From: Macrostomum lignano
Taxonomy: Eukaryota
Assembly: GCA_002269645.1 (NCBI GenBank)
Contig: NIVC01003483.1
Span: forward strand, 1 to 63,028
Reading direction: 5' to 3'
Length of the DNA: 63,028 bases
Below are positions 25,404 through 63,028 of this stretch, in pieces (within the stretch, counting starts at the first letter, position 1; each line of letters begins with the position of its first letter). Under the pieces are notes generated by a model. The model ran no database searches, had not been told where the DNA came from, and saw nothing but the letters and a program-made list of their open reading frames with translations. A program made the translations under genes and the position numbers.

Positions 25404-25435
<32 letters not shown>

Positions 25436-38919: not shown

Positions 38920-40535
38920 CTTGGTCAACGGGTGGTCCATCGCTAATGGTTTTGAAAGATTTCTCGGAGATGACGAAGCAAGATCTGAATTATCTTCTGA
39001 AGTACTTTGTTATGGAAGTACGCAATCAGGATGGAGACCGGTACACTTCCACCAATCTGAAGGACTTTGTGTCCATTGTTCAATGGTGCTGGCAAAATTT
39101 TTTGAAACAAAACTGGTCAATTTGGATGGACGACGCTTTCCTTGAAACACGTGTCTCATTGGATGCGGCTATGAAGTTGGCCACCAGAGAAGGCAAAGAT
39201 GCTCGTTTGAACAAGGCTGAAATAATTCCAAATACGATTGAGGACAAACTATGGGCTGATGGTGTGTTGGGTGTTACGACGCCGCGCAGCCTACTAAACG
39301 CCGTCGTGTGGCTGTTAAGTAAAAATTTTGCCCTGCGTGGTGGTGCGGAACTACGTAACCTTTAATTTGACAGGCAGATTCAACTGACGTCTGTTGGATG
39401 CACGAGTGCATCGTCTACAGAGAAAATTGCATGACCAAAACCAATCAAGGCGGTTTTAAGAGATTGCTCCGTAATCCGAAGGTTGTTCGTGCGTTTCATA
39501 CGGAGAATCATGAACGCTGCCCAGTGTGTGTCTACAAAGAGTACACGAAAAAGCGTCCTCTAAATAGCGACGCCGCCTTGTTCTTGGATGTGAGTCGGTC
39601 GTGGTCGCCTGGTTCAGCCTGTTCATGGTTCATGCGATCTCCTGTCGGACGGCACACTCTCGCAGATGCAGTAAAGACATGTGTCAAACTGGTTGCACCT
39701 GAGGATACCAGTAAGTATACCAACCAGAGTTTGCGCAAAACGGCTGAAACAAGACTTCATGAAGCCGGCGTCAAACGTGCCGACATTTTTCGCGTCACCG
39801 GCCACAGCTCCTCGGCTCTTGAAAGGTGCTGTGGATGGGTCATAGGCAAATGTTGAGCCATCCTACAGTGACTCTATTTTTATGTAGCTCGGGCAGAGAG
39901 CAAGAGAATCAAAAACGAAAAGAGTGCTCGAATGCCTCAAGTAAAAAAAGCCACACATCTTTACAAAGCGATCACAAACAGTCTCCGGCTCCGTCTTCAG
40001 ACATAACTAAAGGTATATCGGTCAACCCGTGACTGAGCAGAAGGAGGCTTTGGCAATCGTTGCCGCAAGAGACGAGAACCTAGTGACAAAATCAATGCTG
40101 GTGGAGATTCCATGACGCTCATAGTCTGCCAGAGCCAGTATTCTGCCCTCATGACTACCTCTGGAGGTACTACTGCTACCTCTTATAATGCTGATGCCCA
40201 CCAAGGACAACAGTCAACTGTCGCCGTTTACTCCGGGAGTCCTAGTCCTAAGAAGATGCGAATCGAGATCTGTGGCGAATCGAATAAGGTCACTACACCT
40301 TTTCACGTTCAATTTTGAACAAAGTCCAGTTCTAAAAAAACTAGCGGAAATTCAATTCAGACAATTCAGACTGGGGCAACAAAACCCAGTTCAAAACATT
40401 CTGCTACGGAAGCGAGGTTTAGCCATAGACAAAATTGTCCCCAGTCTGAATTGTCTGAATTGAATTTCCGCTAGTTTTTTTAGAACTGGACTTTGTTCAA
40501 AATTGAACGTGAAAAGGTGTATTACTTTCGATTAA
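38920..40535 (+). pseudogene. CryptonA-type tyrosine recombinase (DUF3504-like), disrupted
   Basis: LNYLLKYFVMEVRNQDG..Y, EDKLW..GVLG..P..LL, FALRGGAELRNL, KTNQGG, RCPV, TNQSLRKT..TRL.EAGV..I..VTGHSS. Contains a stop plus frameshift near 39365 and a MITE in the last codons. Confidence 0.85.
40296..40519. mobile_element. Tc1/mariner-type MITE (224 bp, 81-bp perfect TIRs, TA TSD)
   Basis: Arms 40296-40376 and 40439-40519 are reverse complements, flanked by TA at 40294-40295 and 40520-40521. Confidence 0.88.
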
Positions 40536-41729
40536 CAATGCTTGTTTTTCGAGAACTTAATGACGAAAGTGCAGTTCTTCGTTGTTACTCGTTTTTTACA
40601 CGGTATTTCGTTCAAACAGAAATTCTAAAGTCCGGCCCGGCCAAATACATTTCTTTCGCAATAAATAGATGCTTTTCTTTGTCTATGACCGGGCCTAACT
40701 GGATAAAAGGATGAGACTGGAAAAAAGGCGAGAAATGCACTTTCTTTCGGTTAAAGCTAATTATGCAAATAATAAACGCCGTTTAATTCACATTATGTGC
40801 TTAGAATGTCCCTAGGCGAGCAAAACGAGCAAAGGAGAAATTCAATTGCTCCTGATTTCGCGGAGATTATATGACATAATATCCTAGCTTTTGTTAAGAA
40901 TTACCACAGACAACACATTCCTGGCTCAGAATAGTACAATTTTTAATGATTAAATAAGCAATCGTATTATAATCCATAGAAATAAAAACTTTCCGTGACA
41001 ATATTTGCGTTCTCCGGGATTTTATTTGGTAATATTCAATAATATTCCGTGAAGTCTTTATGTCTATGGTTTATACGAGATTACACATGCCTTTTTCGGG
41101 AGTTACGAGCTATTTTCATAAATCCCTCAAAAGGCATGTTTAATCTGATACTTATATGCAAAGCTTGATTTCTAGCTCTCTGTGTGCATTAAAAACGAAG
41201 GATTGGAAACTTCAGCCATAGACAACTTTATTGAACTCAATTCATTTACCGGCTTGCTTTTGGCAGTTTTCGATATACAGCGAAAGCTTTGTGGGTGGAA
41301 GAAAAATTATTATCTATGGCCTAAAGACCGGGTCTTCGAGGCGTCTTAAGAAAGCAGCTAATTTAAGTATATGGTGTCACCCCATGGATTCTTTGATTTG
41401 GTGGACAGAGTGGCTGAGGGCTGCATTTATCGGCCGAGGCAAAACGCAAAGTGTGCAGAGCTTCAACTAAAACAAGTTTGATTTAATTTACTGTGTCCCA
41501 TGCCAACCACCTCCAAAGAACAAGGTAAGCAAACGGTAAATTCTGCATTTGGTAAATTTTAACAGTAATTGGTAGAACTTTTTGTAATTTTTTATTTGTA
41601 GCATGATTCAAGAATTAACGTTGATAGAAACTTACTTACTTTCTCGCAAAGTCAGTTGGATTATAAATATAAAACGATGTAAAGACTAAAACAGGAACTG
41701 TATTCATTACAAAAGTGTTTACAAAAGTT

Positions 41730-41855
41730 ATTTTCCAGATACGAAGGCAAAGCCCTCTGTGTTAGGGACATGTTTTTGTTTATTTTCAGAATCTTCAGGT
41801 GTTATAAAACATTCAAAGTCCGCATACACAACAAATGGAAGCTTTTCCATCTTAT
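41730..41855 (-). pseudogene. polB: Protein-primed DNA polymerase B, piece 3 (Exo I motif)
   Basis: HKMEKLPFVVYADFECFITPE..QKHVP. Continues piece 2 in frame once LTR copy 2 is removed. Confidence 0.85.
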
Positions 41856-44292
41856 TGATGGGTTTCGACCTTTGGGCTCCTTGTTAGGGAAGCCTTCGGG
41901 CCTCAGGTCTCAGAAATAAATCAATTAGAGTCCTGTCCCCCCACTCCTGTCAGATGGTCAGCCCCATGGTAGCTTGATCGTGTGGCGAGCAGTCTAGGTC
42001 CTATAGCTAAGAGAGGGACGGCGAGAGACAAGCAGGGAGAATTTTGAAGGTAGAAATTAGCTAATCCGCAGATCAACTAACTCGCTGCCACCAGCCCGTG
42101 GGCCCTGGCTCACCACACCGGGACTCTCGAAATCGGGCTTCCGACTAGAAGGGGCTTTGCACTTACCTGCCAACTAGTGTCTTTTTGCTGTCTATTTCGA
42201 AGTCATAGCCGATGTTAAGGGACACTGCTGGGACTAGATCGCATTGGTCATGCAGGTACAGAGGGGACTTGTGCAGGGGATTCTTGCAGTGGCGAGTCTA
42301 TGGGGTAGCTACATGTACTATTACATTGCTAAATACGAAGATATGTACTTTTGGCCTTCAACGCGCCAACCAGCCTCTCCTAGCGCTGATGATAGGCTAA
42401 CTCGATCATCAGAGACCGCATGATTCATTAACCGAGCCGCTTGGCTAACCTAGAGTGCACAAAGTACATCTCTGGCGCCGATTCTGCACTACTGGCTGTT
42501 TTGCTCACTGATTTGATAGATTGATCGACTGAGAACTGCCTTGTCATTGGTTCACTGTGACCGGCGCCTACTATACTGTCCGTCAAAAGTTCCGGAACCC
42601 TTGCTACGATGTCTTCTAGCGGACAGAATTTCAGTCCGTTTCAATTGTAACTTGATTCAAATGAAAGCTGCGGATCTCAGCTCCATGATGTGGTCAAGAA
42701 AAAGTTTATTCGAAGGAGCGCGTGTGAACAGGCCAGTGTTATGTACATAAAGGTTAGAGAAAAAAAGTGAGGAAAAGACAAACAAGCAATTGTCTATGGT
42801 TGCTGAGTCTATGGAGCAAACACACATGGGAAGGAATCGGTTTGCGCGCAGTGTTCAGCCTGGCTAACATTAGTCTATGGCCAAAACTTGTGTTGAAATC
42901 AACAGTGTTTCAACAGTGTTGAAACAGTGTTGAACAGTGTTGTTTCACTGTTCACTGTAAGTGTTATGTACATAAAGGTTAGAGAAAAAAAGTGAGGAAA
43001 AGACAAACAAGCAATTGTCTATGGTTGCTGAGTCTATGGAGCAAACACACATGGGAAGGAATCGGTTTGCGCGCAGTGTTCAGCCTGGCTAACATTAGTC
43101 TATGGCCAAAACTTGTGTTGAAATCAACAGGCTCTTATGGATTCTTGTGCAGTCAGTTTTCATGGGAGAGTAAAAAAGAGTAAAAAAAAGAGCAAGCAGA
43201 ATGCACTGCACTCCCACCCCTCCCGGCCGCGTGCCTGCGCCACCCCCCCCCCCCCCTATTTTCTTATTATGCGTACCCAGCCGGATTGCCTGGCCTGGCC
43301 CCTCTGCCCCCTTTTTTAGCACTTGTCAAAAAGTGCCCCCCTTTTTTGCTATATGCGCTACCCCTCCGTCAAAGGTGATTGGCCAACAAGTTGGTATTGC
43401 TCTGGGTTGTTGATAATGCTGTCTGGCGTGAGACCCTAGGGCTTACGCCAGGCAGCCTAAATAAATAGAAAGCTGCTGGGGGGGGGCAAGGTGAGCGTGT
43501 TGCCTTAACGTCTGCCACTACAGAATCAATAAACTTAAACTGTGATATCAAAATCTCAATAGTACTATACAACCGAATTCGCCGCCTTGCCCACTGCCGT
43601 GCCGATTGGAAGTCAGAAGTAAGACTCGCGTCTGTATTTAGTAATCATTTGGGACTCGTGTTAAGCGGGTACCGTACGCTCTAGGGACGGACTGGTTGCC
43701 TTACCTAAACGCGATCCGACGCTCAGTAGCGGAGTCAGTCCGGTCAGCGGGCTGACGCCATCTCTCAGGCTCGTTCGCTGCAGAATATTCTTAGGGAGCT
43801 GGTTCGATCACGTGTAGTGACACAACAATATTCATTAGAAAGCTCTTATTAAATAGAAAGTGAAAATAGTAAAGAAAAATCGCTAATCGATAATCCCAAA
43901 GTACTTTTAGGGGTAAAAACGCATAGCTGTCACAGCTGTCACACGCTTGAGTGAATCCCGACAATTAGGCTCTGACCTCATAAATCTGATGGCCTGTCAA
44001 AATGATGAGAAAAAAGCTACTATTCACATCCCCTCAGACCACCTGGCGCCAGCCTCAACACTGAGTGAGGCGCAGGCGGCTGTTAGACCAGCTTCGAAAG
44101 TGATGATCTATGACCCTAAAAGCTGCGCCTATGTTATTATGACTACTAGTATGACCAAACATTATATCTAGTATAGGTTCTATGTTACTTCGCAGAAAAG
44201 GGATAAAAAATGGCCATAGCCTACTGTTAGTAAGCAAGTAAGTTTATAGCCTATGTGCTAGCGCGGGATTTGAAAAAACTGCGTCCTTATCA
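41856..44292. mobile_element. Solo-LTR-like element, copy 2 (2437 bp), inserted in pPolB
   Basis: Same TGATGGG..CCTTATCA termini as copy 1, with a 4-bp TSD TTAT (41852-41855 and 44293-44296). Confidence 0.85.
42735..43130. repeat. 171-bp direct duplication with an AACAGTGTT-type spacer
   Basis: 42735-42905 is repeated at 42960-43130. Confidence 0.9.
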
Positions 44293-44939
44293 TTATGATA
44301 ATTCTTAAACCTTAGATATTTTTCTTCAGCTGAGGGAAGAGAGCAGATGGTTGGATGGTCTTCACAGGTTAATTCATGCTCTGCAAGCTTTTCATCACGG
44401 TTAGGTCCACTGTAATTTTCAAACATACTCTACAGATTGCTATAGCTGGACAATGATTGTTGATTTGTTTATGAATTAATCTGGAAAGATCTTTAATCCA
44501 CACATAATGTGCGTTGACTTGTAAATTTCTAATCACTAAAAGATCTACATCCCTCCGTCTCCTACCTTTAGGATCCAAAGTGTTTTGCTACACCTAACTA
44601 GCTGTACTTTTTCACTCTGTTCATTCCACTCAAATACGGGTATTCTAATATCATTGTCGAAAACTTCTTCTAGCTTTGTGATTGGAGCGATTTCTAAGCC
44701 ACTTTTATTAAATTTAATTCCTTTCTTGGAGCATGCAATAAAATAATGGTTAAAATTATCTTGCTAATGTGAGATTCTTTTAGGGTGACCAGTTATTTCT
44801 TCATAAAAAACTGCAGACAATACAGCCCACAAAGCACAACACTTATCATCATTTTGAACATTTATACATTTATTTTTGTTAGCCAGCTTTGGCGGTAATG
44901 GTAGATAAGATAAAGCCCTGAATCGATCATATTTCATTA
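44293..44939 (-). pseudogene. polB: Protein-primed DNA polymerase B, piece 2
   Basis: KYDRFRALSYLPLPPKLANKNKCINVQNDDKCCALWAVLSA..KRISH*, VDLL..HYVWIKDLSRL..C..C, L.EH..C..EKYLRFKNYH. One stop and about 2 frameshifts. Confidence 0.88.
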
Positions 44940-45536
44940 TGTAATAGTCTGATATTCTTTTGTCTGATATTATTTTGTCAAATACTCTGTGCTTAAACTT
45001 AGTAAATTTTTGTTGCCTCAATCATAGCCTTTTAATATGTTACGCGACCTTACTTGTTCGGTGCTGACGGCTATGCACTATTAATACTAAATTGAGTCTT
45101 CGCAGCAAGAGAGTCTTATATTTGAACCTTGACTGATTATATTTAATTGTATTATTTATTTCAATCGACAGAATTTAAACTATTGCCGTTAAATCATTGG
45201 TAGTAAGGTATAGCGAACAGGCACCACGCGGCGGACAAACCAACAGCACACTCGAGACCAGAGAGAAAAACTAGAGCGCAAAAATGCGATATAACCATCT
45301 TTTAAATAATGCAATACTCGTATTTCTATGAATGGTACAGTAAAGCAAATTTTAAGTGTAAATATTCGAAAAACTTTAAGATTTGTTAATAAATAGTAGT
45401 TAGATGAATATAATACTAAAAGAGACATTAATAATACCAAATTAATGAATGAGTTTAAAAAATGAATATCAACATTGTTACAGATAGTTGCCTTAATCAT
45501 TTACCTCGTTCTGTTGCATGTCTTAATTAGCAAAAA

Positions 45537-48140
45537 AACTAGCCAATTCCAACCCCCGTTGGGGCTTTCCGTCCAAACTCCAACCACAGTTTTCCCCATC
45601 CACAAAATCCCCGATGCAAAGAATCTCACATGCAAAGAATCCCCCATCCAAAGAACCCCCATCGATAGAATCATTGATCCGAAGAATTCCCCATTCAAGG
45701 AATCCTCCCATCTGAAGAATTCCCCATCCAATGAATCCCTTACTCAAGAAATCCCCCGTCTACAGAAGCCCCTTATCTGAAGAATCCCCATCCAAAGAAT
45801 CCCTCATCCACAGAATCCCCATCCAAAGAATCCCTCATCCACAGAATCCCCATCCAAAGAATCCCTCATCCACAGAATCCCCATCCAAAGAATCCCTCAT
45901 CCACAGAATCCCCATCCAAAGAATCCCTCATCCACAGAATCCCCATCCAAAGAATCCTCCATCCATCCCTATCCAAAGAATCCCCCCATCCATCCCTATC
46001 AAAAAAATTTCTCCATCCATTCCTATCTAAAGAATCCCACATCCATCCATATCCAATGAATCCCCGCCAAAGAATCCCCATCCAAATAATTCACATCATA
46101 ATCCCCATCCACAGAATCCCATCTAAATAATCCATAGATCCCCCACCAAATAATCCCCCTATTAATAGAATTCATGGCCAAAGATTTCCCTCGTCTAAGG
46201 AAACCCCGTGAAAATAACCCTCATCTAAAGAATCCTTCATCTAAATAATCCCCCATTCAAAAAAACCCTCCATCGAAACAATGCCCTATCGAAGGAATTC
46301 CCCAATGAATTACCAATCCAAAGATATCCATTAGAAGCATCCCTCACCCAAAGAATCATCAATCCATAGAAATCCCCCCAAGACTCGACACCTCAGAAAT
46401 TTACCCCAAGCATTGACATCTCAGCAATTCCAGCGCAAGCCTTGACATCTTAGCAATTTCTCCCCGTCCAAAGCCTTGACATCTCAGTAATTCCACTCCC
46501 CAAGCCTTGACAGCTCAGTAATTCCCCCAGTAAGCCTTCATATCTCAGTAATTCCCCCAGTAAGCCTTCATATCTCAGTAATTCCTCCAGTAAGTCTTGA
46601 CATCTTAGCAATTTCTCCCCGTCCAAAGCCTTGGCATCTCAGCGATTCCCCTCCCCAATACTTGACACTTCAGCAATTCCTACTTAAGCCTTGACATCTC
46701 AGCAATTCCCCCTAGCCTTGACATCTGATTAATTCTCCTTCCCAAGCTTTGACATGTGAGCAAGTCCCTCTTAAGCCTTAGCATCTCAGCAATTCCCCGA
46801 CACGATTTGACATCTCAGCAGTTTACCCCTAAGCCTTCACATCTCATTAATTCCCCTAGGTAAGATTTTATACATGTATCTCAATAATTCCCCCTGTAAA
46901 TCTTGACACCTTAGAATTCTCTTCCGAGCAAGCATCCCCTAAGAGCAAGCGTCCTTCTGATAGCAAGCATCTTCTGATAGAAAGTACCCCCAGCAAGATT
47001 AGTGAAACATTTCCTCAGCTAGCCAATTCCAACCCCCGTTGGGCTTTTCGTCCAAACTCCAGCCACAGTTTTCCCACGCAATAAAATTTCACCCAACTGA
47101 ATCTCCCATATAAAGAATCCCTCATCCAAAGAATCCCCCATCCAAAGAATCCCCCATCCAAAGAATCCCCCATCCAAAGAATCCCCCATCCAAAGAATCC
47201 CCCATCCAAAGAATCCCCTATCCAAAGAATCCCCCCATCCATCCCTATCCAAAGAATCCCCCTATCCATCCCTATCCAAAGAATCCCCCATCCATCCCTA
47301 TCCAAAGAATCCCCCTATCCATCCCTATACAAAGAATCACCCCATCGATCCATATCCAAAGAATCCCCGACCTCCATCCATATCCGAAAAATCCCCCTCC
47401 AAAGAATTCCAATCCAAATAATCCCCATCCAGAATCCCGATCAAAATAATGCAAAGATTCACTCATCCAAATAAACCTCCATCAAAAGAATCATTGAATC
47501 TGAAGAATCTGAATCTGAGTCCCCTCATCTAAAGAACCCCGTCCAAATAATCCAAAGAATCATACTCCAAATAATCTCCATCCAAAGAATCCAAAGAATC
47601 TCCCATCTAAATAATCCCCCATCAATAAAATCCTAGGCCAAAGAATCCCCTCATCTAAAGAACCCCGTCCAAATAATCCAAAGAATCATACTCCAAATAA
47701 TCTCCATCCAAAGAATCCAAAGAATCTCCCATCTAAATAATCCCCCATCAATAAAATCCTAGGCCAAAGAATCCCCTCATCTAAAGAACCCCGTCCAAAT
47801 AATCCAAAGAATCATACTCCAAATAATCTCCATCCAAAGAATCCAAAGAATCTCCCATCTAAATAATCCCCCATCAATAAAATCCTAGGCCAAAGAATCC
47901 CCTCATCTAAAGAATCCCGTCCAAACAATCCCATCATATCCAAAGGATCCCTTTATCGAGAGAATCCTCCATCTAAAGAATCCCCCATTCAAAGAACCCT
48001 CCATCGAAAGAATCCCCCATCGATGGAATTTCCCAATGAATCACCTATCTAAAGATATCCGGTCCATCAGAAGCAGCCCTCATGGAAGGAATCCCCAATC
48101 CACAGAATTCCCCCCCCCCAAAACTTGACATCTCAACAAT
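45537..48140. repeat. Complex satellite block (CCCCATCCAAAGAAT and CTTGACATCTCAGCAATT families)
   Basis: Both arrays are visible. A leader CTAGCCAATTCCAACCCCCGTTGGG occurs at about 45540 and 47020, and ~120-bp higher-order repeats occur at about 47520-47920. Confidence 0.9.
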
Positions 48141-49067
48141 TCTCAGCAGTTCAGTCTGTTCACCTCTAGGCTAACTCATCGTTTTGATAACATGAATTGT
48201 AGCACTTATATAATTCAACACTGAAAACTCCAAGCATAGAGTAGAAATCACTCGAAGCAAGTTATGACATAATCAATTTCTCAGGCAGGCAATATCTGCC
48301 AACTATTTGCCAACTAAGTTGCCAACTAAAGTCAACTATTAAAGTCAACAATATGGTTACGCAATCTAAATTTAAATACAATGGCGCTGGCTTGAATTGC
48401 GGAGTTGCGATAAAGTAGGGGTTTGCGATATGGAAGAGCGTACAATGAGTATATAAAGTAAAAAGTATAGAAATCTTCTTTTTAATGCTGTGCTCTTAAT
48501 TTTTCGAATCTCAGAAAACAAATTATATTCCCCAACTCAGCGTTCCAAGCTCTTTCCAGCAATACAAGGTTCTCTTCTGAAAGTGAAAAACTCAAAGCGC
48601 AAACAACGATTGAACATTCCTGCTTTAAAGCATTGAAATTAAAAAGGTGTACATTCAGCGCCAGCTACAGTGAGAGGCCTGCAAGTTGATGCATTGAAAT
48701 TAACAACCAAGCAATGCTCAGGACTAATTGAATGGCGAAACCCTCCCCCAATTTCAATAACTTAAAGGTGTTGCGCAACCTTTCAACGCTTGTAGCTTTC
48801 CAAGCGAGTGTAGAGAACCAATGCTATAGTTGGCACTGAGTTATGATGCAATACAATTCCATCGGCAGTCAGAACGCTTCTCAATCGGAAAGAACTGTTT
48901 GAACTTAAAAAACGGGCAAAAAATCGAGTTTTTCGAATATTTAATCCCGAAAAAATAAAGCAATTTCTTAGCAAAATTTTGTGTACCAGCGCACCATCAA
49001 TACGCATCGAATGCTGAAAACCCCACAAAATTCGGACCACGCAAAGTCAAGTTAAACGAAGGTTCCT

Positions 49068-49103
<36 letters not shown>

Positions 49104-49379
49104 GTAGGTAGGTACATAGTTTTGATTTTTAGTATAATGGATAGTTTTGATTTTTAGTATATTGGAAGCATCCAGAATTTTTATTATACCCCCCCCCTTA
49201 ATTGGTTACGCAAGTTAAATAGAGTAATTATCTGGGCAGTGGGGCAAAGTGAATTTTCTTATCAGTTGGCTCTGGCGCAATCATTAAAATTGGCTGTGAA
49301 GTTTCTCGCTGCGCGCAGGCTGATAAAAAAATACACTAAAAAGGCCATTTAAAACAGTTTTTCGAATATTTAATCCCCT

Positions 49380-49560
49380 TAGCATTGAGCTAGAGCTTAA
49401 TAAAATTACATGTACCGTCCCGGGCACATTTGACATCTTTTGGCGAAGAAACGGAGAAAATCGGTTGAGCCTTTTGGGAGATAACCTGTTACATACCCAC
49501 AGACAGACAGGGCCGGTGGAGGGGGGGTTGCTACTTTAGATATATTAGATTAGATTAGAA
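49380..49560 (+). mobile_element. Possible Helitron/HINE-like non-autonomous end
   Basis: AAAATCGGTTGAGCC..ACCCACAGACAGACAG..CTTTAGATATATTAGAT pattern. Resemblance only. Confidence 0.3.
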
Positions 49561-50671
49561 GACATCTTTCGTTTTTAACGCATATCGTATCTAGAATTCT
49601 TATTAGTAATAGTAATAGTAATAGTAATCTAGTAAATATATTACATTAGAAACTTAGTATGCTACTCTGTATGCTCTTAATCACCTTTGCAGTAATTGTA
49701 GTTGTTATAATTTGTCCGACATATTTGTTATTTTCAGTATAAATACAGTTAAATATATTGAAAGAAAGAGCAACAGTCTGGCAAAATCTGGGGCCTAAAT
49801 TGGTTCACAACCTCTTGTTTGTGCAGGCCTTAGTGCCGCCCTATCCTAAAAATATCCATTGAGTCAGACTTATTCCTTTAGAGGCGAACGGTCTCTTCCC
49901 TTCGCCCTCATCCCTCTTCCGATAGCGTACAGCTTCCCCTCTTTCCCCAGGCGAACTGCCGCCTCTTCGCTTCCCCAGCTGAACAGGCGTACAGCCTTTC
50001 CCACTCCCAAACCCTCAGCCTGACCTGGCGTTCTCCCCCACCAGACTCGCTGTTTGCCCTGGATTTAACTCCCATATCAGGCATATTGCCTCCTTATCCT
50101 ATTCGGCCTGTCGCCTAAGCTACTTGCCCCTCTATTAATTCTCCCATATCAGGCATATTGCCTCCTTACCCTGTTAAGGCTTTTGTTAATCCGATAGCGT
50201 ACACCTCCTTATCCTATTCGGCCTGTCGCCTAAGCTACTTGCCCCTCTATTAATTCTCCCATATCAGGCATATTGCCTCCTTACCCTGTTAAGGCTTTTA
50301 GCCTGTCATTCCCTGATTAGGCATATTGCCTTCTTAATTCCCTATCTAAATTCCCTTAATGCCAGGCATTCCCTGCTGAATACTAGAATTCCCTTCAGTG
50401 CGCCAATTTCCCAGGCAACTCAAGTCCATCGCGATGCCCTTAACTACCCCCTTCCCCATGGATAACCGGACTGAGTAGAAATTAGTGTCTTTGCCGCTCG
50501 GACACATTCACGCCAGCAGGAGTTTCCCCAGACTTACTCCTCATAGTATTAAAATTTAAATCTTCCTCCCCAATAATTCGAAAGCCCTAATCCCCGAGTT
50601 ATTTAATAAGACCTGCAACAACTTAGTGTCAGCAGTAGAGCCATCTCTCCCAACCCGCGACCCCTACAACA

Positions 50672-51069
50672 ATTATCATGACTGTCGCTCTTTGAATCCC
50701 ACCAACAACCCATCCTGAACCTCGAGATGTAAAATCTTCAATCTTTTTATTGACCTCTTCAAGGAAAGAATCCACGTTGGCGGGAGGAAATAGTTTAGCC
50801 TTTGTTGTTGTTATATAAAACACCTGGTGCTCTGTTGGTTTAATAGGCATGTAAAATTTAACTAAAAATGATTTTTGTAATTTGAATTGACTCCTTGTTC
50901 TCAAGGTATGGTCTATAACTAATTGGATATTGTATCTTTGGTTGTCTACATTTTGTGTGTCTATTTGAGGTAGCGTATACTTAGCATAACTTTCTGTAAA
51001 CTTTCTGTGAGCAAAATTAATATTTCCGATTTCAAGCTCCAATTCTTTTTGATGAATTAAACGTTCCAA
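50672..51069 (-). pseudogene. polB: Protein-primed DNA polymerase B, piece 1 (N-terminal region)
   Basis: KIEDFTSRGSGWVVGGIQRATVMI has the GSGW motif that precedes SY.PLP in Polinton/adintovirus pPolB. Confidence 0.85.
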
Positions 51070-51402
51070 GTCTTCCTGTTCCTGTCTACTTAGAGATATT
51101 GATACTCCTCACCTGTGATAGTCTTATATTTATTTACTAGTTTTCGGCTCCTTTTTGAAATTCTTTTAATTCATCAACGTTGACAGCGGAGTCAGAGTCA
51201 AGTTGATTTGCCTCTAATTGTTCTATAGATTTCCTCTATTTTTATAGCTACCAAGACGCGGTGTCTTCTGAAATATTCCTTACCAAACATTTTTGCTGGA
51301 TTTGATTTCGGCATTGTTTTCTGTAGAAAATTTAGAAATGTGTTACACACTGTCGGTAGAGTCAAATTCCAAAGAGTGGGCGAGTTCTGGTTTTTCCCCT
51401 CA

Positions 51403-51834
51403 TCACATCCGCATTATTGAAAATCCTGCTTTATGTAATGTCATAATGGTCTTGATGACTTCAAAATTGCTAGAAAAACCATATCTCTCACAACTATCAG
51501 AGCTGTTAAATCCATCTCCTGCCTTAATTGTAATACCTTTGTCTCTTGCAATCTTTTGCAATTCTAGCTGGTGAGCTCTATCATTACCAGCTTTAACAGC
51601 ACTCGCTACACCTCCAGCTACACCACCTGCGGCACTTAGAGCACCGGTAATGATTGGGATAAGAGCTGCTAATTGAAGGATTCCTCCTGAATTTTTATCT
51701 GTGATGCTGTGTCTTTGCTCATTACACTGAACTATTTGCTGCATGGGATCGATTTTTACTTTGACACCTTTAATTGTTAAAACGCCTGATTTCTTTGACT
51801 CGATGATTTGATAGATTTTTTTGGCAGTTTTCAT
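51403..51834 (-). CDS. Adenovirus pX-like / amphipathic core protein of the Polinton
   Basis: GGILQLAALIPIITGALSAAGGVAGGVASAVKA resembles the adenovirus pX GGILPLLIPLIAAAIGA..ASVA segment. Confidence 0.65.
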   Translation of the reverse strand: MKTAKKIYQIIESKKSGVLTIKGVKVKIDPMQQIVQCNEQRHSITDKNSGGILQLAALIPIITGALSAAGGVAGGVASAVKAGNDRAHQLELQKIARDKGITIKAGDGFNSSDSCERYGFSSNFEVIKTIMTLHKAGFSIMRM

Positions 51835-51854
51835 TTCGATCTTAATTTTTTGTT

Positions 51855-52790
51855 TTATATTTTTAAATTAATTTCTATGTCAGCTGGAATTACAAGTAGT
51901 TCACCTCTTGTGAATGAACGTGTAGGGGATTTAGGGTTAAACGCCTGAGATAAAAACTAAAAAGTAATAGTCACTAGATGTCTGTCTATTTTATGTACAT
52001 CAAGACGGAAGCGATCTGTAGCTCTTCTTTTAGTTTCCTTCTCTAGTTCTTCAGGTAGAGATAAAAAGCGTAGAACTAAGAGTTTGTCAATATGTATGGC
52101 GATTCAACTCCTGAAAGCTTAGGGTAGTTTGAGGTGTGTGGTGTGTGTTGAGTGTGCGTTGAGTTGTGAGATTCTTTAAGTTCGACTTTGTCTTGTTTAT
52201 TTGCATAAGAAGGTTTTAGTCCAATCATTCGTGTAACTTCATTATTAAGTTCATCTGTGACGCTAGGTAGATAGTCTACCCACTTGGTGTAGTATTGTCC
52301 TGTATTAAATTTCAACTCTTCAGCTGTCTGTTTAGTAAATAGCCTTTTAGCTAGAGTTTGATTTAAACCTCTCCACTAACGCCTGATCCCTGTGTAGTTC
52401 CTTTTTACTATGGCGAATTCTTGTGAAATGCTTTCCCATAAGTGATTTCACCGCACCCATGAATTCTTTGCCTGAATCGGTCATTAAGATTTCTGGATAA
52501 CTAAGCGGCGAGTTTTTATAAATATATTGTAGCGCATTAGCAACTGCTTCTGATTGTTTATTCTTTAGTGGACGAGCTTCTTTATATCTAGAGGCGACAT
52601 CAATCACTGTTAGAGCATACTTGTTCCCTGAATCGTTGGGGAGAAAGAGTAAGTCTGCTTGGTGCGCCTCATTCGGTCTAGAAATATTAAAGTGTGGCCT
52701 TTTAAATTCCACAGGTGGAAAATAGACTTGGAAAATAGCTTGTTTAGACAACCACTTTTCTACTGTAGACTTTGGTTCCTTACTTAACTT
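51855..52790 (-). pseudogene. Polinton rve (DDE) integrase, frameshifted, with the N-terminus cut off by an insertion
   Basis: KWLSKQAIFQVYFPP, PNEAHQADLLFLP, YALTVIDVASRYK.A.PLK.K, LMTDSGKEF, VERF, WVDYLP.V..LNN..TRMIGLKP, RRATD, RSFTRGELL. Confidence 0.92.
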
Positions 52791-52792
52791 TA

Positions 52793-52930
52793 ATTACAAA
52801 AATAAATAGCCTTTATCATTTCGTGTGGCTTGTTGTGAGGCTGAACCACACGAAATGATAAAGGCTATTGATTTTTGTAATAGAGTTCACATGCTCTGCC
52901 TATTAGAAGCCCTGTACATTAAGACCAAAC
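52793..52930 (+). mobile_element. Penelope-like element remnant, 5' half (inverted end plus GIY-YIG C-terminus)
   Basis: 36-bp inverted repeat (52793-52828 / 52846-52881), then PHEMIKAIDFCNRVHMLCLLEALYIKTK. Confidence 0.7.
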
Positions 52931-53022
52931 TTACTTGACTTAGCTGCAGGGGGCTCCGTGCGTCCGGAAACAGCGAGAAGGCGTTGCCGCCCATTTCCCT
53001 AACCCCTGGCGACCACGGGCAG

Positions 53023-56705
<3,683 letters not shown>

Positions 56706-56968
56706 AATTCCACGAGTGGTCCGCGCAGCTTCCTGCCGGCTCAAGGCGAGTTGTGCAGGAGAGCTGCCTCTTCTGCCTCGCCGATAGCTCCAGGCTCCAG
56801 CTCCATGGGCTCCTCCCGGATGGATTCCATGGTCGAGGGCGAGGTCGCTACCTGGGCGGCATTCTCGCTCTCGCCCGGTTTTCCGGGGGGCCGCAGTGGT
56901 GACACTGGGCTGGGGGTGGCTGCGGTTGGGGGCCTTGGCGGTGTCCAGCAGCTGTTTCGCGCGCTGAG

Positions 56969-58205
56969 TCAGACCAGAGCGGATAGTGTTCCGGGCGGGT
57001 TTCCGGCCCTTTCCACGTCCGCCTGTTGCTGCAGCTTTCGCGGCTTTCCCTCTGACAGGGTCCACGTCCTCGGAGGGGTCGTGACGACCGGGAGCTTCTT
57101 TTCCTGGGCGTTTCCGCCCGGCAGAGCCCCCGACTGCCCGCTTACGCTTCTCCGGGGCGGTGGGCGGGTGGCGTCAGACTCAAAGCTAAAGAGCTGAATC
57201 TGCAACAGCCCGACAGAGATGATGGACATGTCCGGGTAGCGGAGCATCCAGCTATCCGACAGTCCAAGAATAGCCGTGAAACCGTCTCCGCCTGGCTTGG
57301 AGATGGTCTCGTGAACTACGACACCGTTGGCCGGTAGCTCCGGGTTGGAAGCCACTAGCAGGTGACGCAGCTCGTCGGCCTTGGTGATGCAGCTGCGAGC
57401 CGGGATCCAGGCACGGTGCCGGTGTGTCCGGGGTCGCTCGTCCTCCCTGTAGATGAACAGGTTCTCCAGCTCCGTACCCCAGTCGAAGGTTTTCAGCAGC
57501 TCGAGGAGCTGCTGTCCTGACTGGCTGTCGGTGGGCTGGATATAGAGGGCTTGGTCCTCGACTTTCGTCTTTTGGACTCGAATAGTAGTGCCGCTCAAGG
57601 CCATCTTGACCAGGTGGGAGTCCAACCTGCGCCAGATAAGGTCGAGCTGTTCGGCCGTAAGAGGCGTCTCCTGGCCTTGGATAACCAGGGCCGGCTGCCT
57701 TTTGGCCATAGCCGCGTAGGTTCGCTTCGGCTTTGTGGTTTGGCCAGCGCCCCCGCTTTGGATCCCTCCACGGCCGTGGGAGCTTCCACACGGGCAGAGG
57801 TCCGGTCACGGGAGGGGCCAGCCGCACCAGGAGTTTCGGCGGCACCTGACGCATCAGACCGGCGCGCGGGGTCCACCCCTTGTCGGATGTCGGCTCCTCC
57901 GCGGGGTTCGCAGAGTTACCGGCACCCTCCTCAGAGGTGGCCGGAGGGGCGGCTTTCGCATTCCTCCGTTCCTCCGCTTTGCGCTGGAGAAAGGCTTTGT
58001 AGCGAGCAATGCTACGGGCCTTCTTTTTCGAAATCTGAGGTCCGCTGTCTTGTCCAGCCACTCCGGTATTATCCTGAGCGGCGGCAGCGGCAGATTGAGA
58101 GGCACCGGGGGTTCCGGTGTTGCGAATGTCCGGCTGGGCCGCGGTGCCAACCTCGGTTGGTGCTCCAGCAGCCTCGGACGTGTCGGAGGTAAATGAATAC
58201 TCCAT
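56969..58205 (-). pseudogene. LINE ORF1 (gag-like), frameshifted
   Basis: Basic N-terminus KKKARSIARYKAFLQRK and a downstream 246-aa frame (FTAILGLSD..ISVGL..QL) directly upstream of ORF2. Confidence 0.65.
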
Positions 58206-58805
58206 GAGTCGCTGAAAGGCGAGTGGGGACTAAAGGTGAGAAGCCGCTGGGCCGTAACCCCAAACCCAACAACCAGGCCAAGAGGTAGCGACCGGGGGTG
58301 GCTTAAGCCCGTACCGGCCCGACCGCTAGCAACCGAGAAACTCCCCGGCTAAGAGCCCGGCTTGGAAAAACCAGAGGCCGAACCAAAGGACCATCAGCAC
58401 GGTACTACACTGGGCCCTTGAGGGAAGCAGGAGGACTGCCTCCGGAGCCTGCGGACTGGCCGCATACCCTGTTAAGGTCAGAGGGTGGTACCTGTTCCTC
58501 AGAGCCGTGGCCAGAGGTACCTGATACGCACAGGTGCACTTCCGGGCGGAGCCCGTACAACTTGGCCAAAAGGCCACGGATGGGTTGCCGCCGCCGGAGC
58601 CCAGTCAGTCCAGCAGCCCTGGAGCTGCCTTGAACACATGCGGGGCGTGAACCCCTGGGTCGGCTTGCGAGTCAGCTTGGAGAGAGTTCTCCTGCCATTC
58701 CTGCACCAGAATAGAGGGGGTGCAGGTGTGTAGGATCGCAGACCTTAGCCCGTAGGCCTAGTCTGTCTCATGCTACACAGGCGTGCTGTACCCGCCATTG
58801 CATGC

Positions 58806-59020
58806 TTAAGACCAAACAGCCCACGTTAAATAACCAACTTGCGATGGGTGGGGCTAGCCGTCAACTCAGATTTTTTTAGCTGATTTGTCAATGACCGGAC
58901 TGGCTTGAAACTGATATGCACTTTACCCAACCAATACTGTATCAAAAATTGATTACTATGTACAAGTTTTAAACCATCAATTAAAAACTCAATTCAACTA
59001 CACTTGGTACTCTCAACTAT
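58806..59020 (+). mobile_element. Penelope-like remnant, 3' half
   Basis: Continues the frame as KTKQPTLNNQLAMGGASRQLRFF* (stop at 58877-58879). The right boundary is uncertain. Confidence 0.65.
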
Positions 59021-59024
59021 CTAT

Positions 59025-59057
59025 GTAGTAAAGTTCTTTTAGTTTCTCGTCCGACAT
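59025..59057 (-). pseudogene. Probable displaced first codons of the Polinton integrase
   Basis: AAAA-ATG context and MSDEKLKELYY, similar to Polinton integrase starts. Some codons linking it to KLSKEPK at 52790 appear to be missing. Confidence 0.5.
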
Positions 59058-59087
59058 TTTTATTAATTATTTTTATAAAAAATAAAA

Positions 59088-59528
59088 ATGTCGCGTTCCA
59101 AACCACGCTTAGATGCCCATGGTGTGCTAGAAAAGCTTCCTCGCCCGATTAAAGGTTGGAAAATCCCTGGTTATAAATACTGTGGACCTCTGAACCCGCT
59201 TGAAATACAATTGGATGAAAAAAATAAGCCAAGAAAAGGACACGAACCAGTAGATGAGTTGGACTCTATCTGTAGGGAGCATGACATAGGCTATAAATTT
59301 TTTCCTGATGAGAAGTCTAGGTGGGACCGGGACATGCTCAAAAAACTAGATGAGATAGGACCTTCTAGTGGATTTCGAGAGTCCATGGCACGAAAACTTG
59401 TCAAAGCTGTCATTTCTGGGAAGGTGAAATTGGGACTGGGATTTGTAAAAAAGTGTTTTGTATTGCAGACACCAAATAAAGAAATAGAAAGACAATTGAA
59501 AGAAATTGGAGTTAAAAAAATTACTTAG
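59088..59528 (+). CDS. Parvovirus VP1u-type phospholipase A2 domain protein (PLA2X-like)
   Basis: PGYKYCGPLN Ca-binding loop, PVDELDSICREHDIGY catalytic HD motif, and a KVKLGLG tail. The ORF is intact. Confidence 0.88.
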   Translation: MSRSKPRLDAHGVLEKLPRPIKGWKIPGYKYCGPLNPLEIQLDEKNKPRKGHEPVDELDSICREHDIGYKFFPDEKSRWDRDMLKKLDEIGPSSGFRESMARKLVKAVISGKVKLGLGFVKKCFVLQTPNKEIERQLKEIGVKKIT

Positions 59529-59607
59529 GTTTGCTATTTTTTACGTATTTTTTGCCGCTGCATAATGTTTGAGAGCGTTCTCAATTTCATTTCTCAGCTG
59601 ATTCATC

Positions 59608-60159
59608 TCAACATTCAAGTTGGTTGAATTTTTTGTTGGTTTTATTATAAAGATTTTGGGTGGCTTTAAACTCATCGTCTGAGATGAACTTGTCCTCAAT
59701 TGCTTTTGAAATGTAGCCGATGATTGATGTGTGAACTCCTTTCTCATTTATTTGCTTCTCCTGTAGCTGTTTAAGTTTCTTTTGTCGATTGCACGCCAGC
59801 GCTCCACTGATTGCTGAGATAAGACCACATGCAGCACCTACAGAGCCAAGTGGAATGGCGATTGGAATTGTAATGGCTGGCAACACTGAGGCTGCAGATG
59901 CTGAACCTGTTAGAACAGACACAGACCCGAGAGTAATATTACTGTACTCAAAATATCTGCAGTGAGCTTTGTAGCGTTTGATATTCTTTGTGTTGTGTTT
60001 TATTTTATTTTCAATGTCTTCTCGCATTTTTTGAATCTCCACCAATCGAACTTGTTGAGAGTTACAAGTAATGACAGGGTAGAGTTTTTGCTGCTCATAG
60101 TGAGGTGCACTAGGTGCTTGGGTTGCATTCGGTTCATAAAGTGAATTTTGAGCGTCCAT
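59608..60159 (-). CDS. Polinton-associated coiled-coil protein with two hydrophobic segments
   Basis: RLVEIQK..IE..KRYK, hydrophobic ITLGSVSVLTGSASAA..IPIAIPLGSVGAACGLISA, then ISKAIEDKFISDDEF. Confidence 0.55.
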   Translation of the reverse strand: MDAQNSLYEPNATQAPSAPHYEQQKLYPVITCNSQQVRLVEIQKMREDIENKIKHNTKNIKRYKAHCRYFEYSNITLGSVSVLTGSASAASVLPAITIPIAIPLGSVGAACGLISAISGALACNRQKKLKQLQEKQINEKGVHTSIIGYISKAIEDKFISDDEFKATQNLYNKTNKKFNQLEC

Positions 60160-60345
60160 TTTTAGGGAATTTTTTAAAAATTGTCAACTAGCTGGTGATC
60201 TGTTTTACGTTTGATTGTTTAGTCTGCAGTGACGGCAACGGGTCTCATCGAATCTGCCTCTTCATTGTCTATGTTTTTGAGCTTATGCAAGCGTTCAAGC
60301 CGACTGATTCTTCTCAACGATTTCTGCCATTCGTAAAACTTAAAT

Positions 60346-60824
60346 CTATATAAAGCGTTTACATGCTTCAATTCTTTCATTGTTCCGATCATGCAACGCT
60401 GTTGACTGAGTCATGAACTCCTCTAAATTACTCACTTTGCCTGTGTTTGTGGAAACTCTTCCTTCAATAATATGCATCCGGCTATCAGTGGCATTTCTCA
60501 GATGATTAATTGTCGATGCTAAATTTGTTCTCAAGCCATTAATTTGCGTGACTACCGAAGTTATTTCTGACTTTAGTTCATTAGTTGCGTGTGCAAACTG
60601 CATATAAAGCTTATCACTTTCAAACTTCTGCTTAGCTACTTTATATCGGAGTTCTTCTATGTTTATTTGCAGTTGGTGTACCGACCGTTCCATTTGTTTT
60701 ATTCGATTTTTTATTGGCTCGATCTCTGGGATCTCTTCATCAGTGTTAATATAGCGCCTGTCAAGAAGGTTGTCGTGAGAGTTCCATTGCCTGTAGTTGA
60801 CTCACCTGCAAAATTTACTGACAT
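60346..60824 (-). pseudogene. Polinton coiled-coil hypothetical (frameshift near the 5' end)
   Basis: MSVNFAGES start at 60824 and a heptad-rich 115-aa frame at 60346-60693. Confidence 0.45.
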
Positions 60825-60829
60825 TTTTA

Positions 60830-61605
60830 AATGAAAGAATAAAAAATTCTAAAATTCTGTTCTCCTTGTTACTCATGACAAACTGATAGGGTTGGTTTCA
60901 CTTTTCATAGCACAGGTTCACAAATTCATCCTGTGATATTTTTCTCTTTTGAGAGTTGGGATTAGTAAAATGAGATGGTGAAATTACTTCATTAGAAAAT
61001 CGTTTCAGTCGATCCTGTGGTATGGTTGGGAAAAGGAGAATCAAATTACAGTTACCTCTAATTGTTTTATTTGGCAATTCAAACCAGTTTTGGGCAATAT
61101 AAATAACATTGCAGTTATTGTGCCTTACCCCGGGTAAAATAATTTTCTATCTGTTTCTGGGGGACCGGTCATGCAGTCATCAAAGACAATCAGGTGCTTT
61201 CTTCCCTTTTCTAGTTCATCAGGTTGTGGAAAGAGTTTAGTTTTAGGATCTATCTGTGGATCTCCATAAGTGAAAACTTTAATGTTCAGTGGCTACAACT
61301 TCTGGGTTGCTGTTGAGGTCTTTTTGATGTCTAAAACACTGAATAATACCTTCCTTGTTGAGTTTGTTTTGCAATCCTGCTACTAGCATTTTATATTCAT
61401 CTTGGTACAGAGTGGGTGAATAGAATAGTAGTGTGTCATAATCGAGGAATCCAGGTCTGAGGAGCATGTTAAAAACTCTGAAGGTTTTCCCTGACCCAGA
61501 TGAGCCAACAACAATGCATCGGAAGTGCCATGGAATTATCTCGTTGTGAGCAAATTTTATCTGATTGCGTGTCCAGTGGGGATGAAAGTCGTTTGTGAAG
61601 TCCAT
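60830..61605 (-). pseudogene. A32/FtsK-like DNA-packaging ATPase (disrupted)
   Basis: Walker A IVVGSSGSGKT, Walker B HLIVFDD, then YFTR.RHNNCNVIYIAQNWF.LP..IRGNCN. The frame is broken after about 61279. Confidence 0.92.
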
Positions 61606-61803
61606 TTTTTTATGTAAAAAAACTTTTTCTTTTAAACTTGTGTATTTAAGACGCGTGTGTCTCTTTGCGGGATGTGTATGTGTGTGTCTCTTTGCGGGAT
61701 GTGTGTGTCTTTTTTTTCGGGTTGTGTGTGTCTTTTTTTGACTAGTCCTACATCCGACTAGTCCTACACCCTTACACCTCTTTTACCGTCAGGGTGCACC
61801 AAA

Positions 61804-62078
61804 TTAGTCAAGTTTAAAACCGCCTCCTTTCTTATATTCAGCTCTCATCTTTGCGTAGATGGCTGGATCGACACTATCTGCACTCGGTGCAAGGGTTGAA
61901 TATCTGGTATTGATTTCCGGGTTTCATTAACCGTATTCTTTATCTTTTTGGCTGCTGTGGCTACACTGCCAGCCGTTCGGCAACGTTCTTGATGTTCTCT
62001 TTGTTCTCTCCAATGACCTTAAAAATCTTGGCCCCCTGAGCGATCAAATCAGCAAGGCCATTCCCAGAGCGTTCTTTT
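61804..62078 (-). pseudogene. Small basic core-like protein, copy B
   Basis: RSGNGLADLIAQG..FKVIGENKENIKNVA..VATAAKKIK..YAKMRAEYKKGGGFKLD*. Confidence 0.6.
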
Positions 62079-62216
62079 GATTGCGTGTTCAATGGGGATA
62101 GAAGTCATTTGAAAAGTCCATTTTTATTTTATTTTCATTTATTTTTATGTGTCTTTTTTGTTAAAGCTTTGTCTCTTTCTGTCACCTGTGTGTCTTTTTT
62201 CAACAGGTCTTGCACC

Positions 62217-62590
62217 CTAGTCAAATTTAAAGCCACTTCCTTTCTTAAGTTCGGCTCTCAATTTTGCGTAGATAGATGGATCAATACTGTCAGCGGTTGG
62301 AGCAAGAGGAGCAAGAGGTTGAACACCTGTGTTTCGTTTGCTCTCATTGACTGTATCCTTAATCTTTTTAGCTGCTGTAGCTACACTACTGGCTCCTTCA
62401 GCAATATTCTTTATGTTTTTTTGTTCTCACCAACCACCTTAAAGATCCGAGCCCCTTGTGTGATCAGATCGGCGAGGCTATTCCCAGAGCGTTCTTTCTA
62501 CAGAATACACCAGAATGCTCAATCAGCTTCCAGATCGAAAGCCAAAATTTAAAACCATAGACACTACTCCGTGTACGTGTGTCTCAAGTA
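62217..62590 (-). pseudogene. Small basic core-like protein, copy A (5' end uncertain)
   Basis: RSGNSLADLITQG..FKVVGENK..IKNIA..VATAAKKIK..YAKLRAELKKGSGFKFD*. Confidence 0.6.
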
Positions 62591-63028
62591 GTAGCAGTTA
62601 AGACATTAGCATTTTACATTGCTAAGTGAGCCATTGCGCATTGCTGTTTCTAATCCAGGCTATATTAAACTAGAAACTAGAAACATAGATGTAGCTTTAT
62701 ATGCAAAACTACTGAATATTTTCAATAAAATTCGTATTCAGCAAGTAAAGCTCAGCATAACAGCAGGGTCTAACAAGCCGCTGTATGATATATGTAGATC
62801 ATTCCTGGTTTCGAAATCCTGATCAGAAGTTCCTGTCCCATTTCCAAGTTCGAACTCCTAGGTTGAAAATTTCCAAATAGATTCTATGAACTGACTGTAG
62901 TTAGATGCTCTGTAAAAGAAGCCGTCAGTGTGCGTCTTATCAGACGGTGTTCACCCTGGTCAGACAGCAGCCGTCTTTCAAAGCTTGCTCAAGCGAATCC
63001 CATGCTGCATATTCGATTTCGATCTTAA

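What the first reader, a model, noticed from the sequence alone, without database searches (positions are those of the whole stretch)
41730..62590. Endogenous Polinton/adintovirus-like genome buried under at least four later insertions
Seen: pPolB, pX-like, rve integrase, PLA2, a membrane protein, a coiled-coil protein, the packaging ATPase and core-like genes in compact order. About 14 kb of the ~21 kb span is younger insertions. No hexon, penton, protease or TIR is visible, and pPolB is lost shortly after Exo I. Established: this gene set defines Polinton/Maverick and adintovirus elements. Inference: a probably uncatalogued lineage from this host, whose native ~7 kb can be reconstructed by hand.
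Basis: partly seen in the sequence, partly recalled or inferred. Interest (0 to 1): 0.8.

Follow-up and report, generated by a model that had tools for sequence, protein, structure and literature searches.

The report
Broken Polinton virus fossil, two-lineage mosaic
This is the wreck of a Polinton (Maverick) DNA virus that once inserted into an animal's genome and was later riddled by other mobile DNA; such fossils are common, and the one unusual point is that it seems pieced together from two related viruses.

Summary
Window 41.7-62.5 kb carries a decayed Polinton/Maverick. Its Polinton-type integrase is split by an insertion (relatives up to 72% identical). Its pPolB survives in five collinear pieces, from the terminal-protein domain through vOTU to Exo I, with nothing beyond. 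It also holds an A32-type ATPase in three frames, PLA2, a pX-like gene and a SLATT-like two-helix membrane protein. Three insertion sites total 14,359 of 20,861 bp. Ten loci fetched with the integrase carry the same kinds of genes. Two corrections. First, the 'core-like genes' are two copies of one gene plus an ATPase start, diverged under purifying selection (dN/dS about 0.11). The relic is therefore probably a mosaic of two viral lineages joined near 62078, not one 7-kb genome. Second, candidate true ends lie at 62568 and 41053 (suggestive only). If they are real, the capsid genes were deleted rather than lying beyond the window. No capsid gene or maturation protease was found, so adintovirus family membership is unproven. 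Verdict: new member of a known, common kind.

The parts
62498..62568 (-). Candidate right terminus, beginning with the (AGT)2 motif described for Maverick ends; suggestive only
   Evidence: motif from PMC8097293 passage
62078..62497 (-). Lineage-1 fragment: 3' part of a small lysine-rich gene (unassigned, 'core-like'), spacer, and first ~15 codons of an ATPase
   Evidence: 75% and 85% nt identity to 61805-62077 and 61562-61609; dN/dS 0.11; control 0 of 5000
61805..62077 (-). Lineage-2 copy of the same small gene, 5'-truncated at the junction, frameshifted
60898..61605 (-). A32/FtsK-type packaging ATPase, in three reading frames
   Evidence: Pox_A32 E 1.1e-3, below cut-off; Walker A, Walker B and downstream motifs in order in the three pieces (motif patterns recalled)
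60219..60823 (-). Coiled-coil protein, frameshifted, unassigned (fiber-like position is a guess)
   Evidence: only non-specific coiled-coil hits; no match in the 10 loci
59541..60159 (-). Two-helix hairpin membrane protein, SLATT-like; open for 183 codons, last residues probably in another frame
   Evidence: 158 relatives at E<=0.001; model pLDDT 87; iridovirus and SLATT-named fold hits; SLATT_1 E 0.012; homologs in L001, L010
59088..59528 (+). Parvovirus-type PLA2-domain protein, open frame, HD motif present; head-to-head with the integrase across a 30-bp AT-rich palindrome
   Evidence: PF08398 E 2.3e-12; motifs; palindrome; homologs in L004, L005, L008
59019..59059 (-). First ~13 codons of the integrase
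   Evidence: P0001 residues 1-13 align here at 69% (E 1.6, weak alone)
52829..59018 (-). Insertion site A, 6190 bp: about 0.3 kb of unidentified sequence holding a 5.9-kb GC-rich LINE (ORF1, APE, RT, RNase H) with a 12-bp target duplication
   Evidence: Pfam Exo_endo_phos_2, RVT_1, RNase_H; duplication; GC 0.60 vs 0.33-0.39
51870..52828 (-). Body of the rve integrase, catalytic D-D-E kept, broken by frameshifts and stops
51403..51831 (-). pX-like (adenovirus mu-core precursor-like) gene, open frame
   Evidence: PF05829 E 9.8e-5, below cut-off; no match in the 10 loci
50672..51140 (-). pPolB piece 1 (terminal-protein domain)
   Evidence: the matching region of relative L003 folds like the Y-family little finger
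44940..50671 (-). Insertion site B, 5732 bp, TG...CA ends with a 4-bp target duplication, no internal LTR pair; filled with tandem arrays. Read as a solo-LTR-like element with nested repeats (inference)
44293..44939 (-). pPolB piece 2 (vOTU and zinc finger), with one stop and frameshifts
   Evidence: the matching region of relative L003 folds as OTU, Z 8.1
41856..44292 (-). Insertion site C, 2437 bp, TG...CA ends with a 4-bp target duplication; sister copy at 34907-36898
41730..41855 (-). pPolB piece 3 (Exo I motif); last recognisable viral coding sequence
41053..41072 (-). Candidate left terminus: 12-bp inverted match to the right terminus and a 5-of-6 target-site match; suggestive only

Best explanation
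A dead endogenous Polinton/Maverick (class Polintoviricetes). The living ancestor would have copied its linear DNA with a protein-primed polymerase (TP-vOTU-Exo-Pol), packaged it with the A32-type ATPase, probably used PLA2 and the pX-like protein in the virion, and entered the host germ line through its rve integrase (inferred from known families). This copy can do none of that: the integrase and polymerase are cut by three insertion sites, two thirds of the polymerase and all recognisable capsid genes are missing, and point damage has broken most longer genes (shown). The ~0.5 kb right of 62078 comes from a second, related viral lineage, joined by nested insertion plus deletion or by recombination before integration. 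Selection on the two copies is shown; the joining route is inferred.
For: Integrase: 840 of 1224 candidates at E<=0.001, best 72%; D-D-E invariant in 31 of 31 aligned sequences. pPolB: collinear hits and a clean control; relatives carry PF03175 (3 of the 4 polymerase-bearing ORFs tested that reach the catalytic part or are long: L001, L003, L007); the matching region of one relative folds as little-finger/TP plus OTU, with Drosophila-associated adintovirus 2 the best viral match, E 1.4e-14, the layout described in PMC11161782. Co-occurrence in 10 loci: A32 ATPase 3 of 10, PLA2 3 of 10, membrane-protein homolog 2 of 10 by tblastn. Insertions have target duplications. Mosaic: 36 of 61 differences at third codon positions, dS about 1.0, dN about 0.11 over 100 codons; 0 of 5000 neutral simulations with the same frame picking reach that share. 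Intron-bearing kinase (HR1 + Pkinase) and Nckap1 genes in the same window show a eukaryotic, by all signs animal, chromosome.
Against: Two homolog searches with pPolB pieces found nothing, nor did the Atlas or a phage tblastn. ATPase and pX-like matches are under Pfam cut-offs. The coiled-coil, pX-like and duplicated genes match none of the 10 loci. pPolB runs the same way as the integrase here but converges on it in most loci that show both. None of the 10 loci holds both PLA2 and the membrane protein in the stretch fetched. The mosaic rests on 100 codons, only 14 of them from the ATPase (p 0.045 alone).
Confidence: 0.85

Rival explanations
1. One larger provirus that runs off the window: capsid, penton and protease genes and a long terminal repeat lie beyond 63028, and the duplication is an old tandem repeat inside a single virus.
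For: Sequence beyond 63028 could not be read. The generic terminus test is not significant (27 of 362 null pairs score as high). In L001, L002 and L010 a presumed capsid gene lies just upstream of the ATPase.
Against: 62498-63028 has no long frame and no match above control level to any relative or family. The duplicated block cuts two genes mid-frame, yet both halves show selection, which a tandem stub would not.
Confidence: 0.25
2. A self-contained, internally deleted, non-autonomous Polinton: both ends (62568 and 41053) lie in the window, and it integrated as one ~7-kb capsid-less unit using another element's proteins before the later insertions.
For: The best AG...CT pair in those flanks is the one with the (AGT)2 motif, a 12-bp inverted match and 5 of 6 target bases. 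With the motif required, 17 of 5347 null pairs score as high. Mobile Polintons without polB are described (10.1101/2025.02.07.637071, passages).
Against: The second test was narrowed after seeing the data. The matching 12-mer contains an 8-mer that occurs 15 times in the window against 1.9 expected, so it may be an end motif of other transposons. The 71-nt right end aligns no better than shuffles (96 of 300). The left end lacks a clean (ACT)2. The relic still carries ATPase, PLA2 and pX-like genes that such a unit would not need.
Confidence: 0.35
3. A chance pile of unrelated mobile-element scraps.
For: The region is dense in transposons (Gypsy, DUF3504 recombinase, LINE, MITEs), and three ORFs have no assigned relatives.
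Against: Compact spacing, one GC level (0.33-0.39), gene continuity across each insertion and co-occurrence of the same gene kinds elsewhere.
Confidence: 0.02

Closest known systems
Polintons/Mavericks (class Polintoviricetes)
   Same: pPolB with TP and vOTU ahead of the exonuclease, rve integrase, A32/FtsK ATPase; integrated, intronless, decayed. 96% of 3,511 vertebrate Maverick loci are decayed (PMC8097293 passages).
   Different: No long terminal inverted repeats, no capsid or protease gene found; probable two-lineage junction; pPolB codirectional with the integrase.
Adintoviruses, family Eupolintoviridae (renamed from Adintoviridae; PMC12451622 passages)
   Same: OTU-bearing PolB, integrase, FtsK, PLA2 and pX-like genes; SLATT is a listed accessory label (PMC8502044). 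Best viral fold match of a relative's pPolB N-terminus is Drosophila-associated adintovirus 2.
   Different: Hexon, penton and adenain not found. PLA2 and the pX-like domain are separate genes here, whereas PLA2X is described as one protein. Alpha or Beta class not determined.
Unnamed integrase clade P0001-P0006, and Polinton-like loci L001-L010 with sea-anemone (Actinostola) relatives P0079/P0110
   Same: Same ~330-aa integrase family, 49-73% identity; the loci carry pPolB, ATPase, PLA2 or the membrane protein.
   Different: The window integrase forms its own 100/99 group with six proteins from 1.4-2.3 kb contigs of unknown context, apart from the loci and the named proteins.

Membership tests
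Polinton/Maverick | [quoted passage not shown] | tested here: met
   N-terminal third only; collinear match to PF03175-bearing relatives, control clean; direct searches empty
Polinton/Maverick | Retrovirus-like (rve) integrase | tested here: met
   PF00665 above cut-off; 840 relatives; D-D-E invariant
Polinton/Maverick | A32/FtsK packaging ATPase | tested here: met
   Weak: Pox_A32 E 1.1e-3 below cut-off, pairwise E 7e-4 to a relative's ATPase, motifs in order
Polinton/Maverick | Terminal inverted repeats with (AG)3 or (AGT)2 ends and 6-bp target duplication | tested here: inconclusive
   No long repeat; short candidate pair 62568/41053, null 27 of 362 and, narrowed afterwards, 17 of 5347
Eupolintoviridae (Adintoviridae) | OTU domain at the PolB N-terminus | tested here: met
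   Indirect: window pieces align to the region of relative L003 that folds as OTU (Z 8.1, rmsd 3.3, 108 aligned; model pLDDT 67)
Eupolintoviridae (Adintoviridae) | Double jelly-roll hexon and single jelly-roll penton | tested here: inconclusive
   No hit with presumed capsid ORFs of L001, L002, L010, but those ORFs were not validated as capsids (Pfam none; PDB none) and come from another subclade; sequence beyond 63028 not available
Eupolintoviridae (Adintoviridae) | Adenain (Ulp1-like maturation protease) | tested here: inconclusive
   No Pfam hit among the 33 ORFs scanned; no validated adenain query was at hand
Alpha-class adintovirus virion module | PLA2X (PLA2 with C-terminal pX-like domain) | tested here: inconclusive
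   PLA2 present above cut-off and a pX-like gene present, but as two separate genes
Beta-class adintovirus virion module | GasderminX and Cupiennin genes | tested here: inconclusive
   The membrane protein gave no gasdermin match (0 of 66 aligned members in the 25 of 28 families shown) and leans to SLATT; the named reference proteins were in a part of the supplement not held
Alpha vs Beta PolB class | Catalytic-core phylogeny | not testable with these tools
   The catalytic core is absent from the window and no named reference was retrieved

The most novel reading that the evidence does not exclude
A capsid-less, polymerase-less Polinton made of two lineages (dS about 1) that still integrated as one unit with both ends intact. 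It would be a recombinant, helper-dependent defective genome of an unnamed invertebrate Polinton clade carrying PLA2, a free pX-like gene and a SLATT-like protein together: fossil evidence of co-infection and mobilisation in trans.
Probability: 0.25. Interest if true: 0.55.

Novelty: new member of a known kind. Interest (0 to 1): 0.32.

Why it matters
Decayed Polintons are common in animal genomes, so the basic finding mainly adds a host-linked gene order to an integrase clade known otherwise only from short unnamed contigs. The junction matters more. Gene exchange between adintovirus lineages has been inferred from trees (PMC8502044), and a preserved breakpoint between two lineages under one pair of ends would be a direct record of it. 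The nested insertions also give a relative time order: Polinton first, then the solo-LTR-like elements and the LINE.

Tried and rejected
Homolog searches with two pPolB pieces: 62 and 2 candidates, none scored. Atlas search with the N-terminal pPolB frame: no usable hit. Phage tblastn with the Exo I piece: none. PHROGs on 18 pieces: only weak transposase, terminase and coiled-coil hits. PDB sequence searches for PLA2, the pX-like gene and a relative's presumed capsid: none. I first took the membrane protein for GasderminX from memory; no test supported it and SLATT-like fits better, though weakly. Its PDB fold hits (Z up to 11.7) are unrelated helical hairpins and say nothing. The idea that insertion C and its sister are the two LTRs of one retrotransposon enclosing the Gypsy frame at 37362-38924 was rejected: each has its own 4-bp duplication and pPolB resumes right after C. 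An in-host neutral tandem duplication at 62078 was rejected. No Rfam match in 33000-63028; no tRNA in the window. The sigma-70 scan is not meaningful for this host. No target duplication of 6 bp or more was found for the outer part of insertion A. A paper search on a recalled, untested guess that the host is a flatworm found one passage reporting Orthopolintovirales insertions in flatworms; the host stays undetermined. Viral and metagenome contig collections, the rest of the host genome and sequence beyond 63028 stayed unchecked.
Full report
Setting. The left 26 kb of the window holds intron-split genes: a kinase with HR1 repeats and Nckap1. Their introns are full of tandem arrays. This is a eukaryotic chromosome, by these genes most likely an animal's; the taxon was not determined. 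From about 33 kb onward the window is mostly mobile DNA.

Observation. Of 33 ORFs scanned with Pfam, the integrase (E 1.6e-9) and PLA2 (E 2.3e-12) pass their cut-offs; the pX-like gene (E 1e-4) and the A32 ATPase (E 1.1e-3) fall just under. The integrase core found 840 relatives among 1224 candidates, the best 72% identical; 5 of the 120 listed carry a name, two of them from a sea anemone. The best relative aligns with its first 13 residues at 59019-59057 and the rest at 52820-51870, so one gene is split by 6.2 kb and broken further by frameshifts and stops. The ATPase lies in three frames with Walker A, Walker B and downstream motifs in order (the motif patterns are recalled).

Polymerase. 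Direct searches with the pPolB pieces failed. A scan of GTDB contigs with the integrase alignment returned 10 loci (88 pattern matches, 11 confirmed). They sit in bacterial MAG records but carry Polinton genes and, in L010, LINE reverse transcriptases, so they are probably mis-binned animal DNA (inference). Their polymerases carry PF03175 (L001, L003, L007). ORFs from five loci align to the window in order at 50919-50674, 44940-44584, 44569-44280 and 41853-41788, with the relative's numbering continuing across both gaps; best E 1.6e-11 against 0.033 in the reversed control. The divergent L001 polymerase gave no hit. A profile from 16 relative ORFs hit five window fragments, all pPolB pieces, at positions 102-435 of 1210, and none in the control. 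The matching region of relative L003 was modelled (pLDDT 67, six sequences). Residues 1-120 resemble the Y-family little finger and 126-243 the OTU fold (Z 7.6 and 8.1); the best viral match is Drosophila-associated adintovirus 2. This is the TP-vOTU-Exo layout described for Polintons in PMC11161782 (passages). The window therefore keeps TP, vOTU, a zinc finger and Exo I, and has lost the rest.

Accessory genes. The membrane protein has 158 relatives at E<=0.001, of which the ten best looked up carry no informative name. It models as a long helical hairpin, with iridovirus proteins and several SLATT-named viral proteins as fold neighbours and a weak SLATT_1 hit (E 0.012). No gasdermin match appeared. 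Homologs lie near the same integrase family in L001 and L010; PLA2 does so in L004, L005 and L008; A32 ATPases in L001, L002 and L010. No locus holds both PLA2 and the membrane protein in the stretch fetched, though seven of the ten loci are under 9 kb. The coiled-coil, pX-like and duplicated small genes match none of the ten.

Insertions. Site A (52829-59018) holds a GC-rich LINE with APE, RT and RNase H and a 12-bp target duplication, inside about 0.3 kb of unidentified sequence. Sites B (44940-50671) and C (41856-44292) have TG...CA ends and 4-bp duplications, and C has a sister at 34907-36898 with its own duplication. B has no internal LTR pair and is read as a solo-LTR-like element later filled with arrays (inference). 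Together they make 14,359 of 20,861 bp, and at least four events.

Two lineages. 62218-62497 resembles 61805-62077 at 75%, and 62078-62125 resembles the ATPase start at 85%. The block is a repeat whose edge cuts two genes mid-frame. Over 100 aligned codons the differences fall 19, 6 and 36 on the three positions; dS is about 1.0 and dN about 0.11. Dealing the same differences at random and picking frames the same way reached the observed share in 0 of 5000 runs. The copies therefore diverged as working genes, long before this locus decayed. The simplest reading is two related viruses joined at 62078, by nesting and deletion or by recombination. An old duplication inside one virus, later trimmed, is not excluded.

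Ends. No long inverted repeat links the two sides. An (AGT)2 motif, reported for vertebrate Maverick ends (PMC8097293, passages), starts at 62568, 70 bp past the last viral match. Among all AG...CT pairs in the two flanks the best is 62568/41053, with a 12-bp inverted match and 5 of 6 target bases; 27 of 362 random segment pairs from the window score as high. Requiring the hexamer, a narrowing made after seeing the data, gives 17 of 5347. Against it, the shared 8-mer is eight-fold over-represented in the window. I rate these ends at about one in three.

Mechanism and rivals. Best reading (0.85): a dead Polinton, probably mosaic. Shown: gene identities, breaks, insertions, selection on the two copies. 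Inferred: the ancestral life cycle and how the lineages were joined. Whether it ends inside the window (0.35) or continues beyond it as one larger provirus (0.25) is open; a chance pile is excluded.

Known families. It meets the two features that define Polintons, pPolB and rve integrase (PMC8502044, parts 1-3 of 6 read; further passages). It works like an adintovirus (family now Eupolintoviridae; PMC12451622, passages), but hexon, penton and adenain were not found, so I do not file it there. The capsid test is weak because the query ORFs were not validated. Of that paper's supplement I saw the map labels and one search; the protein files were not in the part held and may bear on gene names. 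In a tree of 48 integrase cores (39 of the 120 listed hits, 8 of the 10 loci, the window; midpoint-rooted, no named adintovirus) the window groups 100/99 with six unnamed short-contig proteins. Passages were also read in 10.1101/2025.02.07.637071 (polB-less Polintons with transposon cargo), 10.1101/2023.08.22.554363, 10.1101/2025.04.19.649669 and PMC8363768; supplements of the preprints were not seen. Seven paper searches ran; I saw no report of this locus in their listings, but without the host name that is not a test.

Verdict. A real and well-supported but common kind of genomic fossil: new member of a known kind, interest 0.32. The two-lineage junction and the possible in-window ends are the parts worth following.

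Noticed in passing
window 52793-52881: 36-bp inverted repeat (97%, 17-nt loop) at the edge of insertion A whose arm includes integrase coding sequence: an inverted copy of the junction itself; fold-back event or assembly artefact.
   Followed up: partly
window 34907-36898 and 41856-44292: Two solo-LTR-like sisters share their 5' 470 bp at 88% and their 3' 723 bp at 98%, with unrelated middles; suggests gene conversion or subfamily recombination.
   Followed up: partly
window 37362-39856: A Gypsy gag-protease-RT frame (-) abuts and overlaps a DUF3504 tyrosine-recombinase (Crypton-like) frame (+); both truncated.
   Followed up: no
window 40294-40521: MITE-like element with 83-bp perfect arms and a 62-nt loop.
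   Followed up: no
window, 15 sites: One 8-mer occurs 15 times against 1.9 expected, clustered in the transposon-rich part; probably an end motif of a host DNA-transposon family.
   Followed up: partly
window 59052-59093: AT-rich palindrome between the head-to-head start codons of the integrase and PLA2; possible shared promoter.
   Followed up: no
L001-L010 (GTDB MAG contigs): Animal-type Polinton elements, some with LINE genes nearby, lie in records titled as bacterial MAGs: likely eukaryotic contamination of GTDB genomes. L002 repeats its integrase-polymerase block in tandem.
   Followed up: partly
window 2169-21028: Host PKN-like kinase and Nckap1 genes with introns made almost wholly of 12-40 bp tandem arrays, a different unit in most introns.
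   Followed up: no
window 24866-26023: Two glutamine-rich minus-strand frames with no Pfam match; probably exons of a third host gene.
   Followed up: no
window 33030-34440: GC-rich decayed coding-like stretch with an endonuclease-like motif by eye; no Pfam hit at 1e-3.
   Followed up: no
window 51198-51413: Short open frame between the pX-like gene and pPolB, no family match.
   Followed up: no
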